Source of the DNA: Octopus vulgaris
Lineage: Eukaryota
DNA length: 64,000 nucleotides
Direction: 5' to 3'
Assembly: GCA_951406725.2 (NCBI GenBank)
Contig: OX597818.1
Location: forward strand, 50,778,001 to 50,842,000
The translations under genes were made by a program, and so were the position numbers. Below the pieces are notes generated by a model. The model was given only the letters and a program-made list of their open reading frames with translations, was not told the origin of the DNA and made no database searches. Below are positions 57,445-59,569 of this stretch, piece after piece (position 1 is the stretch's first letter; each line of letters opens with the position of its first letter).

Positions 57445-57840
57445 ATAAGAATTTTTTGCGTAATAAGATAAAAAAAACTAAGGCTGTATGGATATTAGAG
57501 CATTTATAGATAGGTCTTACAGCTGTTTCTTGGATATTAATTAATAATATCCCTTCATCGGAGACGGTGTGAGAGGAAAATTAAGTCATAGTTAGTTTAG
57601 ATGTGATACAAAATAGAGAGTGAGGTGGACGAAAGAAAATAAATGCTCTAATATCTACACAGCCTTGATTTTTTATCTTATTACGCAAAAACATTCTTAT
57701 ATACACACGCTGACATAGAACCAACGTTGAACCCTTTATTCGAAATATTACCGAATCTGGAACTTAACTATGGTCTGTCTATAGCACTTATTCAGCATTA
57801 CCTGACACCTTTGGGTCTCAATGACACCATTACCTCTTAT
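57445..57840. mobile_element. PLE-derived fold-back island (arms 57445-57508 and 57638-57702) plus unique tail
   Basis: Inverted arms with a hammerhead in the loop. Tail shared with 19260-19400. Confidence 0.78.
57514..57565 (-). ncRNA. Minimal type I hammerhead motif (U4C variant)
   Basis: GTCT CCGATGA AGGGATATT-ATTAATT-AATATCCAA GAAAC AGCT GTA AGAC. Confidence 0.7.
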
Positions 57841-58049
57841 ATATAAAACTTAGATTAAAAACTTAGATATGTTTCGACCAAAGATTGGTCCAGCTGATAG
57901 GATTATCTAAATCCTTTTTAAGTCAAGTTTTGTTTATGGTCCATTCAAGTAGTGAGTTGTTATTGAGTGAGTTATTATTATTATTAATGAATAATAGCAA
58001 CAATAATATAAGTGGCCAGCAACCATTAAAGCCAAAAAGGCAAATTTAT

Positions 58050-58280
58050 AAATTTATAATTAATTATTAATTACAATTGAGAGTACACGAAGAACCAGCA
58101 TTGTTAGAAATAAGAGTAAAAAATACTTTCAGCTTTAATGGTAAGTTAAATTTTGCTCGTAGCTCCATTTTCGTCAGCCTGTTGTATTTTCGGTGGAATG
58201 GAGGATTACTTGAGTATTTTTCTAGCAACGCTGGTTCTTCGTGTGCCTTCAATTATAATTAATAATTAAACATAAATTAT
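58050..58280. repeat. Fold-back island next to (TA)n (arms ~58050-58110 and ~58217-58280)
   Basis: CACGAAGAACCAGCATTGTTAGAAA / TTTCTAGCAACGCTGGTTCTTCGTG. Confidence 0.85.
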
Positions 58281-58409
58281 ATATGTGTATATATATATAT
58301 ATATATATATATATATATATATATATATATATATATATGTAACTACAAGTGGATTGTTAGCGATTTTTTCCCTCCGTCTTCCTTTTCTTTTGGACTTTCC
58401 TCCCTCTCC

Positions 58410-58446
58410 TGTTTCTGAAAAAGAGTTTTGCTCGAAACGTAAAACA
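58410..58446 (+). ncRNA. Minimal hammerhead motif (G8A variant) within TA-embedded island 58339-58548
   Basis: TGTTT CTGAAAA A GAGT-TTT-GCTC GAAAC GTA AAACA. Confidence 0.6.
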
Positions 58447-59569
58447 TCGTTTCTTTCCTTCCCCCAGCGTCTTATTAATATTTTGCATCAACCACGTCCT
58501 CGGTTGTTGTTTTTTCTTTTATTTTTTCTCTGTTTCTTTCATTAATTGTGTATATATATATGTATATATATCGCGGATTTTAGCGACGAAAATATTTTGA
58601 CAAATTAAACTTAAATGTTGAAGTGAATCGAACGGCTTTTGTGTGTTTCTTAAATGGCTTATAAACACCTTCCACGCTGCAATTGTATATATATATATAT
58701 ATATATATATATATATAGAGAGAGAGAGAGAGAGAGAGAGAGAGAGAGAGAGAGAGAGAGAGAGAGAGAGAGAGAGAGAAAGAGAGAGATAGGGGGGATA
58801 AACATGTAAATATTTTAGAATGTAGAAGCGAGAAATATAAGTATCCGATATAATGGAGCGCACGTACACACACACACATACACACACACATTTTAGTCAC
58901 ATATGCCCATGCAATCACAGGTGTGTGTTTGAACAAAATACATTCTTGAGAACAGAAACAGTATTTTTCTTCAAACCTTTTTTTTCTACTTGCAATGATG
59001 TTTCCATGATTCCATACTAGATAATTTTTATAGTGTTACAGTGGATATTTTGTAATAGAATTTTAGTTGCATAACATCCTCCCACATTGTATTTGTCGTA
59101 AATATATAATATCTTAAAGTCAGTGTTTGGATGGTGTGTTCTGAAGTCACTCATTATTATCCTTCTTTCGTTGCTATTTTGTTTAGTGACCAATTCAGAA
59201 CATTATAACTCTCATTACTAAGGACAGCTAGAGTACTGATGCCGATTATCTTATTTTATTTTATTTTAGCTTTCTTTTTTTTTTTTTTCATTTAGCTCTA
59301 TTTTAAGTATTAGACTAATGCGTCTCTTACATTTCTTCTTAATCTTTTGTTTCATTTGTATATGCCAGATACCGTTTTATTCCTTTATTTCTATTTATAT
59401 GTCTTCGTTTGGCCTAATTCTCTTATCTCAGTTTCTTTTCCCAGTGTGGTATTAATATTCTTAATTAATTTTCCTCTCTTCCAGATCGTTTCGACGCATT
59501 TTTAAAGCAGAATGTTAAATTGATTTCTTTGGCATTATTGTTTTTGTCATAAATATTATTATCAATACA

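What the first reader, a model, noticed from the sequence alone, without database searches (positions are those of the whole stretch)
57445..58690. Cluster of TA-associated fold-back and hammerhead mini-elements: candidate non-coding PLE-dependent system
Within 1.2 kb there is a fold-back with a hammerhead in its loop (57514-57565), a second fold-back (58050-58280), a TA-bounded island with another hammerhead (58410-58446) and a fourth island (58570-58685). Across the window about seven fold-backs and six or more hammerhead motifs follow the same rules: (TA)n context, arm-loop-arm-tail layout, palindromic helix III and often an extra purine after A9. Minimal hammerheads and inverted pLTRs are known for PLEs. 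The inference is that these short non-coding units are a major, possibly self-propagating (retrozyme-like) class that seeds dsRNA hairpins across an editing-rich genome.
Basis: partly seen in the sequence, partly recalled or inferred. Interest (0 to 1): 0.7.

Follow-up and report, generated by a model that had tools for sequence, protein, structure and literature searches.

The report
Decayed Penelope retrotransposon ends with hammerheads
Two hairpins and two mutated hammerhead-ribozyme motifs strung along TA microsatellites are likely dead end-fragments of Penelope-like retrotransposons, a known kind of element, and probably not a new self-copying RNA.

Summary
Both hammerhead motifs sit at the stated coordinates (2 found, 0.025 expected), and both fold-backs are real (z -13 and -12). 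The fourth island has no motif, fold or relative.

The interpretation mostly does not hold. Both motifs carry a core mutation (U4C; G8A). None of 9 hammerhead candidates in the window lies in a tandem array, the defining trait of retrozymes. The 57.4-kb element has a second copy at 19.1 kb with the same arm and tail but no loop, so the unit was not copied whole. The stated 'rules' (minimal type I motif, extra base after A9, palindromic helix III, (TA)n targets, head-to-head inverted copy, one-sided tail) are published PLE traits, closest to the Hydra clade.

Best reading: independent, 5'-truncated PLE insertions of several families, now decaying. No autonomous partner could be searched for.

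Two leads remain. Short inverted arms start 6-13 nt 3' of the predicted cleavage site at the 3 loci where it can be placed, a possible genomic footprint of in vivo cleavage. Two family-B copies share a 5' boundary. Interest 0.27.

The parts
57442..57507 (-). Family A, locus A1: 3'-terminal arm of the long copy, ending in a TA-rich flank (about 57424-57447)
   Evidence: 61 of 64 match to the other arm; sequence
57514..57565 (-). Minimal type I hammerhead motif: helix I 4 bp, core with U4->C, extra purines, 8-bp helix II, palindromic 8-nt helix III of the form seen in several Hydra-clade PLEs; predicted cleavage between 57518 and 57517, 70 nt from the TA run
   Evidence: PMC8557442 File S2
57566..57638 (-). 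Rest of the loop: likely 3' non-coding sequence of the long copy up to its 5' truncation point; absent from locus A2
57639..57703 (+). Short inverted copy (head-to-head), starting 11 nt 3' of the predicted cleavage site
57698..57841 (+). One-sided tail of about 144 nt, shared with locus A2 (124 of 144 match); open frame 57652-57843 has no credible homologue
57838..57845 (.). (TA)4 where the A1 tail ends
57846..58046 (-). Unassigned 200 nt; possibly the tail of fold-back C (inferred from position only)
   Evidence: no relative in window
58047..58283 (.). Fold-back C: arms 58047-58110 and 58219-58283, loop with a CUGACGA box at 58177(-) but no valid hammerhead
58278..58338 (.). (TA)30
58340..58552 (+). 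Family B solo island, no inverted arm
58410..58446 (+). Minimal type I hammerhead motif: helix I 5 bp, G8->A, extra A, 4-bp helix II, 4-nt palindromic helix III; predicted cleavage after 58441, 109 nt from the TA run
58571..58685 (.). Island D between TA runs: no motif, fold or relative; identity unknown
19146..19399 (.). Family A, locus A2: same arm and tail, hairpin with a 1-nt centre, no loop and no hammerhead; arms start at +12 and +13 relative to the A1 cleavage site
37494..37647 (+). Family B copy, motif 37522-37557 with two core changes; 5' end at -60
41989..42177 (-). Family B copy, 147 of 155 match to 37494; 5' end near -95, close to that of the 58340 copy (-102)
37887..37965 (-). Family B-related 3' fragment without the motif
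44860..45166 (.). Fold-back G: 94-nt arms, about 48-nt tail, 19-bp target duplication, 3' half of a hammerhead in the loop; short arm starts at +6
35173..35212 (+). Best hammerhead in the window: intact core, 6-bp helix II, palindromic helix III; downstream sequence related to G (76% over 78 nt)

Best explanation
The cluster is likely a chain of independent, 5'-truncated insertions of several Penelope-like retrotransposon (PLE) families, probably (TA)n-targeting Hydra-like ones, whose 3' ends carry minimal hammerhead motifs that are now mutated. Shown in the sequence: fixed 3' ends at TA runs, different 5' ends, head-to-head inverted copies, a tail on one copy only, mutated cores, no tandem units and no recognisable ORF. 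Inferred from PLE biochemistry (PMC11167929): the RT-GIY-YIG protein of a full-length element elsewhere nicked a TA tract on both strands and primed cDNA from either of two internal sites, which gives copies with and without a tail. cDNAs begun on opposite strands stopped early and were joined head-to-head, so the fold-back was made at insertion and did not need to exist in the template. One-sided events left solo islands (family B). Repeated targeting of the same TA-rich tract would explain the chain. The hammerhead served the parent element (dimer-dependent RNA processing, role unsettled) and is a passenger here. If transcribed, the fold-backs would form 60-95-bp duplexes, a by-product.
For: 7 of 9 motifs have a (TA)4+ run 50-187 nt downstream, against 18% of random positions within 230 nt (binomial P 2e-4, candidates partly hand-picked). 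This fits Hydra-clade motifs about 90-210 nt from the 3' end and their (TA)n preference (PMC8557442 Files S1/S2). A1 and A2 share arm and tail but differ in loop. Within-locus arm identity is 92/91% against 79-87% between loci. Family B has a fixed 3' end and 5' ends at -60, about -95, about -102 and 3' of the motif. G has a tail and a 19-bp duplication. The inverted 5'-truncated copy and one-sided tail are described in PMC8557442 and head-to-head junction palindromes in PMC3846280. PMC4209133 describes the extra base at 9/10.1, the palindromic helix III and mostly single motifs 'probably related to truncated PLEs'. G8 mutation abolishes PLE hammerhead cleavage (PMC11167929). Arms differ by 5-12%, so they are not assembly chimeras.
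Against: No RT or GIY-YIG remnant was found: 0 credible Pfam matches in 192 frames. No homology to a named PLE consensus was shown: six short window words were absent from a cut supplement, and Repbase/Dfam were not available. The A tail (about 144 nt) is longer than the 30-40 nt usually described. Two family-B copies share a 5' boundary, and 4 of 9 motifs also have a TA run within 115 nt upstream, which suits short defined units as well as truncations. Only one fold-back family has two copies, and the arm comparison rests on 46-48 nt.
Confidence: 0.74

Rival explanations
1. At least family B (about 190-210 nt, TA to TA) is a short non-autonomous PLE derivative, transcribed as a unit and mobilised in trans by PLE protein. 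This is the defensible part of the first reader's idea.
For: Copies at 41989-42177 and 58340-58552 are 77% identical yet share a 9-of-10 word near their 5' TA boundary and start within about 7 nt of each other. The 37494 and 42k copies share a U at core position 6, so their master probably already had a non-canonical core. Non-autonomous PLEs exist (MRC1, PMC8557442).
Against: The third motif-bearing copy starts 35-40 nt further 3', and a fourth fragment lacks the motif. A TA run inside the parent's 3' region would give the same shared boundary. Family A fold-backs were not copied as units.
Confidence: 0.2
2. The elements are monomeric offspring of non-LTR retrozymes (tandem hammerhead units giving circRNA) whose master arrays lie elsewhere.
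For: Retrozyme families can be mostly monomers (10.64898/2026.07.22.740005). Family B is of retrozyme size (170-400 nt; PMC7229834).
Against: 0 of 9 motifs lie in arrays, and the two long-period arrays in the window have no core box. The motifs are of the minimal PLE type. Fixed 3' ends, inverted arms and tails are PLE traits.
Confidence: 0.04
3. The fold-backs are MITEs or other DNA-transposon derivatives with TA target duplication, and the motifs were captured or arose by chance.
For: Inverted arms next to TA. The 42222-42771 fold-back (237 of 245 match) has no motif and no clear tail and could be such an element.
Against: In A1, A2 and G one arm runs on into a tail, so the repeats are not terminal. 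The motif lies in frame with the arm as its 5' neighbour. The motifs exceed shuffles.
Confidence: 0.02

Closest known systems
Hydra-clade PLEs (C-terminal GIY-YIG; e.g. Hydra-1_Obim, Hydra-1_Amil, Penelope-1_NV, Penelope-13_HM; PMC8557442)
   Same: (TA)n insertion preference; type I hammerhead about 90-210 nt from the 3' end; extra base(s) after A9; short near-palindromic helix III of the same form as at 57514 in several members; a 5'-truncated inverted copy noted for Penelope-13_HM.
   Different: No ORF here, so clade cannot be assigned. None of the window families matched the Hydra-1_Obim motif probe (0 hits). Cores are mutated and the family A tail is longer.
Metazoan PLE minimal hammerheads (PMC4209133; dimer cleavage as reviewed in PMC6765202)
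   Same: Short helix I, bulged base between positions 9 and 10.1, palindromic helix III, high family diversity within a genome, mostly solitary motifs attributed to truncated PLEs.
   Different: Nothing of kind. These copies are more decayed.
Poseidon PAc of Anolis carolinensis (PMC11167929)
   Same: AT-rich targets, both strands nicked and extended, two RT start sites giving copies with and without a tail. This accounts for arm-loop-arm-tail.
   Different: PAc tail lies in the ORF start. The family A tail frame had no credible protein match. Head-to-head joining was not shown in the parts I read.
Non-LTR retrozymes (PMC7229834; bioRxiv 10.64898/2026.07.22.740005)
   Same: Short, non-coding, type I hammerhead, PLE-related.
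   Different: Retrozymes are tandem units with a complete motif in each. Here there are no arrays, cores are broken, and inverted arms and tails are present.

Membership tests
PLE remnant (EN+, Hydra-like) | Minimal type I hammerhead near the 3' end | tested here: met
   7 of 9 motifs 50-187 nt upstream of a TA run
PLE remnant (EN+, Hydra-like) | Fixed 3' end, variable 5' truncation | tested here: met
   families A and B, (2 and 4 copies; two B copies share a 5' end)
PLE remnant (EN+, Hydra-like) | Head-to-head inverted truncated copy with a tail on one end | tested here: met
   A1, A2, G
PLE remnant (EN+, Hydra-like) | Insertion in (TA)n or AT-rich target | tested here: met
   G has an AT-rich 19-bp duplication instead
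PLE remnant (EN+, Hydra-like) | Telomerase-like RT plus GIY-YIG ORF in the parent | tested here: inconclusive
   no Pfam match in 192 frames; short 3' remnants are not expected to carry it
PLE remnant (EN+, Hydra-like) | Nucleotide homology to an autonomous element's 3' end | not testable with these tools
   no eukaryotic genome or repeat library; searches found nothing in collections not expected to hold it
Non-LTR retrozyme | Two or more head-to-tail units, each with a hammerhead | tested here: not met
   0 of 9 motifs in arrays within the window; rest of genome unseen
Non-LTR retrozyme | Complete catalytic core | tested here: not met
   U4C at 57514-57565 and G8A at 58410-58446
Non-LTR retrozyme | Expressed 170-400-nt linear and circular RNAs | not testable with these tools
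   no RNA data
Non-autonomous PLE derivative | Many copies of one defined short unit | tested here: inconclusive
   family A no; family B 2 of 3 motif-bearing copies share a 5' boundary
MITE / fold-back DNA transposon | Inverted repeats at both termini | tested here: not met
   A1, A2 and G run past one arm into a tail; the 42.2-kb fold-back may meet it

The most novel reading that the evidence does not exclude
The fold-backs are a genomic record of hammerhead cleavage in vivo. The short inverted arm is the run-off cDNA of a PLE RNA already cut by its hammerhead, while the long arm was copied from an uncut RNA. Short-arm 5' ends would therefore pile up just 3' of the cleavage site. They do at all 3 loci where the site can be placed: +11 (57639), +12/+13 (19194, an independent subfamily) and +6 (locus G), a rough post hoc P of 0.004 under uniform truncation. 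This would give a genome-only test of whether EN+ PLE hammerheads cut during retrotransposition, which PMC8557442 calls unclear and which in vitro data (PMC11167929) did not support.
Probability: 0.22. Interest if true: 0.62.

Novelty: new member of a known kind. Interest (0 to 1): 0.27.

Why it matters
As read here it is ordinary repeat debris: unnamed PLE families leaving truncated ends in microsatellites, useful mainly for repeat annotation. The density (9 candidate motifs from at least 5 unrelated families in 64 kb) does make this genome a rich natural dataset of PLE insertion products. If short-arm ends pile up just 3' of the cleavage site across thousands of copies, that would be direct genomic evidence that PLE hammerheads define RNA 5' ends in vivo, an open point in PLE biology. 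If family B is a fixed-length unit, it adds a non-autonomous PLE family. Short-loop fold-backs could be editing substrates if transcribed, but in this window they supply less stem than SINE-like pairs.

Tried and rejected
Rfam: 0 matches at gathering score. At E up to 10 only microsatellite-driven miRNA matches and other chance rows appeared among those listed (14 of 14; 150 of 293 shown).
My first descriptor demanded a long helix III and found 0 motifs; it was relaxed. The scored loose scan is at shuffle level below about score 9, so its hits at 26921, 24106, 55887, 45481 and 58177 were not counted.
Coding tail: the 64-aa frame 57652-57843 looked PLE-like by eye. It was rejected for lack of support: Pfam 0; word searches 0; the 3 HMMER hits are repetitive unnamed proteins with summed weak stretches. 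A reverse frame of family B found no candidate.
Pfam scan of 192 frames (191 of the 251 unmasked frames of 52 aa or more, plus one added; 60 left out, chiefly those in abundant SINE-like repeats): one sub-cut-off DUF match only.
Outside copies: 0 in prokaryotic genomes, plasmids and phages, as expected for animal DNA. Metagenome and viral contig collections stayed unchecked.
The inverted pair 31802-32340 has CTGAAGA boxes but is SINE-related and was rejected as a hammerhead pair. The 184/190-nt tandem arrays have no core box. A three-way alignment of the 57514, 50017 and 41684 loci showed no clear homology. The primary paper on PLE hammerhead dimers is not held. The host taxon was not established by any search: the abundant SINE-like repeats recall octopus genomes to me, from memory only.

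Full report
Setting. The window is about 35% GC, full of microsatellites (98 TRF rows; 131 TA runs of 4 or more units) and of a few abundant SINE-like repeats. It is animal repetitive DNA. The taxon was not established by any search; octopus is my recollection of the SINE-like repeats, so 'editing-rich genome' is untested.

Observation. Both fold-backs are far beyond chance (z -13.2 and -11.8). Their arms differ by 5-12%, which excludes a read chimera. The fourth island (58571-58685) shows nothing. Both motifs are damaged: U4->C in the first, G8->A in the second. G8 substitution abolishes cleavage of a PLE hammerhead (PMC11167929); that U4 is an essential core base is my own knowledge. Rfam does not see them.

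Anatomy. Read on the minus strand, the 57.4-kb element is loop, hammerhead, 67-nt arm, TA run: the 3' end of an element. The plus-strand arm is a shorter copy of the same 3' end, joined head-to-head, and it alone runs on into a 144-nt tail that stops at (TA)4. Then come 200 unassigned bases, fold-back C, (TA)30, the solo island with the second motif, a TA run, island D and (TA)16. The four pieces share no sequence. They look like separate insertions chained along TA tracts (inferred).

Relatives in the window. Family A has a second locus at 19146-19399 with the same arm and tail (124 of 144 tail bases match) but a 1-nt hairpin centre in place of the 131-nt loop. Its arms are closer to each other (42 of 46) than to those of the 57.4-kb locus (79-87%), as are the latter's (44 of 48). 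So each fold-back was likely built at insertion from its own template and not copied as a unit. The comparison is short and arm homogenisation is not excluded. Family B has four copies with one 3' end at (TA)n and 5' ends at -60, about -95, about -102 and 3' of the motif. A third fold-back, G (44860-45166), has a tail, a 19-bp target duplication and the 3' half of a hammerhead, and its relative at 35173 has an intact core. Of 9 candidate motifs, 7 have a TA run 50-187 nt downstream (P 2e-4, partly hand-picked set), 4 also have one within 115 nt upstream, and 0 lie in tandem arrays. No RT or endonuclease remnant was found in 192 frames, and the open frame over the A tail has no credible homologue.

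Mechanism. Best supported (0.74): PLE target-primed reverse transcription in TA tracts with early termination. One-sided events leave solo 3' ends; two-sided events leave head-to-head pairs, with a tail on the copy primed from the distal start site. Two-strand nicking, AT-rich targets and two start sites are shown in vitro for the anole element (PMC11167929); applying them here, and the joining step, are inference. The hammerheads are passengers, predicted inactive as mutated monomers.

Results against this reading. No parent was found. The tail is longer than usual. Two family-B copies only 77% alike begin within about 7 nt of each other, which keeps a non-autonomous unit alive at about 0.2.

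The lead. In family A three of four arms begin at +11, +12 and +13 from the predicted cleavage site, at two loci from different subfamilies, and G's short arm begins at +6. A uniform-truncation null gives about 0.004, but it is post hoc, n is 3, and the G site rests on half a motif. Fold-backs C and 1264-1497 have only decayed motif-like words next to the short-arm start and were left out. Run-off at a ribozyme-cut 5' end would explain it; so would snap-back at a TA-rich palindrome at +9 to +13. Against it, hammerhead mutants did not change insertion in vitro and no RNA reads ended at the cut site, and several solo copies extend past the motif. I did not see this junction pattern described in what I read from searches, but the library lacks most subscription papers.

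dsRNA claim. PLE-like stems total 358 bp (694 with two uncertain fold-backs), against 1,431 bp from eight local inverted SINE-like pairs (lengths). Their short loops would favour folding, and palindromic repeats do drive editing in frog (PMC5625713), but nothing here shows transcription.

Comparison with what is known. Retrozymes need tandem units with complete motifs (PMC7229834; 10.64898/2026.07.22.740005), tested and not met within the window. PLE expansions and recently active PLE families are reported for Octopus vulgaris (PMC13282606).

What I saw of each paper. PMC4209133: parts 1-2 of 4. PMC11167929: parts 1-2 of 4. PMC8557442: passages, supplement searches and parts 2 and 52 of 59 of a cut file (66, 67). 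10.64898/2026.07.22.740005: part 1 of 5 and passages; its supplements were not seen. PMC7229834, PMC3846280, PMC5625713, PMC8967140 and PMC6765202: passages. PMC13282606: passages and the supplement list only; its repeat library may already name these families. The dimer-cleavage paper was seen only as cited in PMC6765202.

Verdict. Real, correctly located, and best explained as decayed PLE ends: new members of a known kind. Interest 0.27. The cleavage-footprint reading has probability about 0.22 and would deserve about 0.62.

Noticed in passing
window 35130-35760: Dense run of core boxes on the plus strand (35130, 35176, 35604, 35680). 35173-35212 is the only motif with both an intact core and good helices and is the best candidate for a cleavage assay.
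   Followed up: partly
window 121-364 and 35502-35756: Two distant copies (63% over 259 nt) of another family, each with a decayed hammerhead-like motif (221, 35604); the first ends in (TA)28.
   Followed up: partly
window 50012-50096 (+): Decayed hammerhead with a long loop II, one change in the GAA box and the same 8-nt palindromic helix III as the 57514 motif, 50 nt upstream of a TA run.
   Followed up: partly
window 41570-41897: Perfect 30-bp palindrome abutting (TA)13, followed by a motif with an intact core but decayed helix I at 41684; looks like a snap-back junction at the 5' end of a truncated copy.
   Followed up: partly
window 42222-42771: Long fold-back (237 of 245 match) with an AT-only spacer, no motif and no clear tail; could be a MITE and not a PLE product.
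   Followed up: partly
window 37025-37368 and 31802-32340: Inverted pairs: 91-nt arms enclosing a SINE-like fragment, and 116-nt arms related to the abundant SINE-like family. Origin not resolved.
   Followed up: partly
window 6216-6954 and 62275-62828: Head-to-tail arrays of 184-190-nt units (4 and 3 copies) from an abundant dispersed repeat; no hammerhead core box.
   Followed up: partly
window 37526 and 42107: Both family B copies have U at core position 6, so the change is likely inherited from their master and not decay.
   Followed up: no
window 57862-57895 (-): Possible 3' half of a hammerhead (6-bp stem, GAA box, near-palindrome) about 20 nt from the (TA)4, without a 5' core box; seen by eye, unscored.
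   Followed up: no
window 54338-54487 and 54709-54858: 150-nt direct repeat (89%) 371 nt apart, unassigned.
   Followed up: no
window 4076-5940, 10242-10675, 12777-13197, 29971-30991, 32697-33101, 38885-39352, 43303-43722, 46921-47303, 61564-61930: Very abundant two-part repeat whose halves are separated by a variable microsatellite; nested inverted copies give much of the window's potential dsRNA.
   Followed up: no
window 1264-1497: Older fold-back (62 of 71 match) with a hammerhead-like 6-bp outer helix in its loop but a broken core; not counted.
   Followed up: partly
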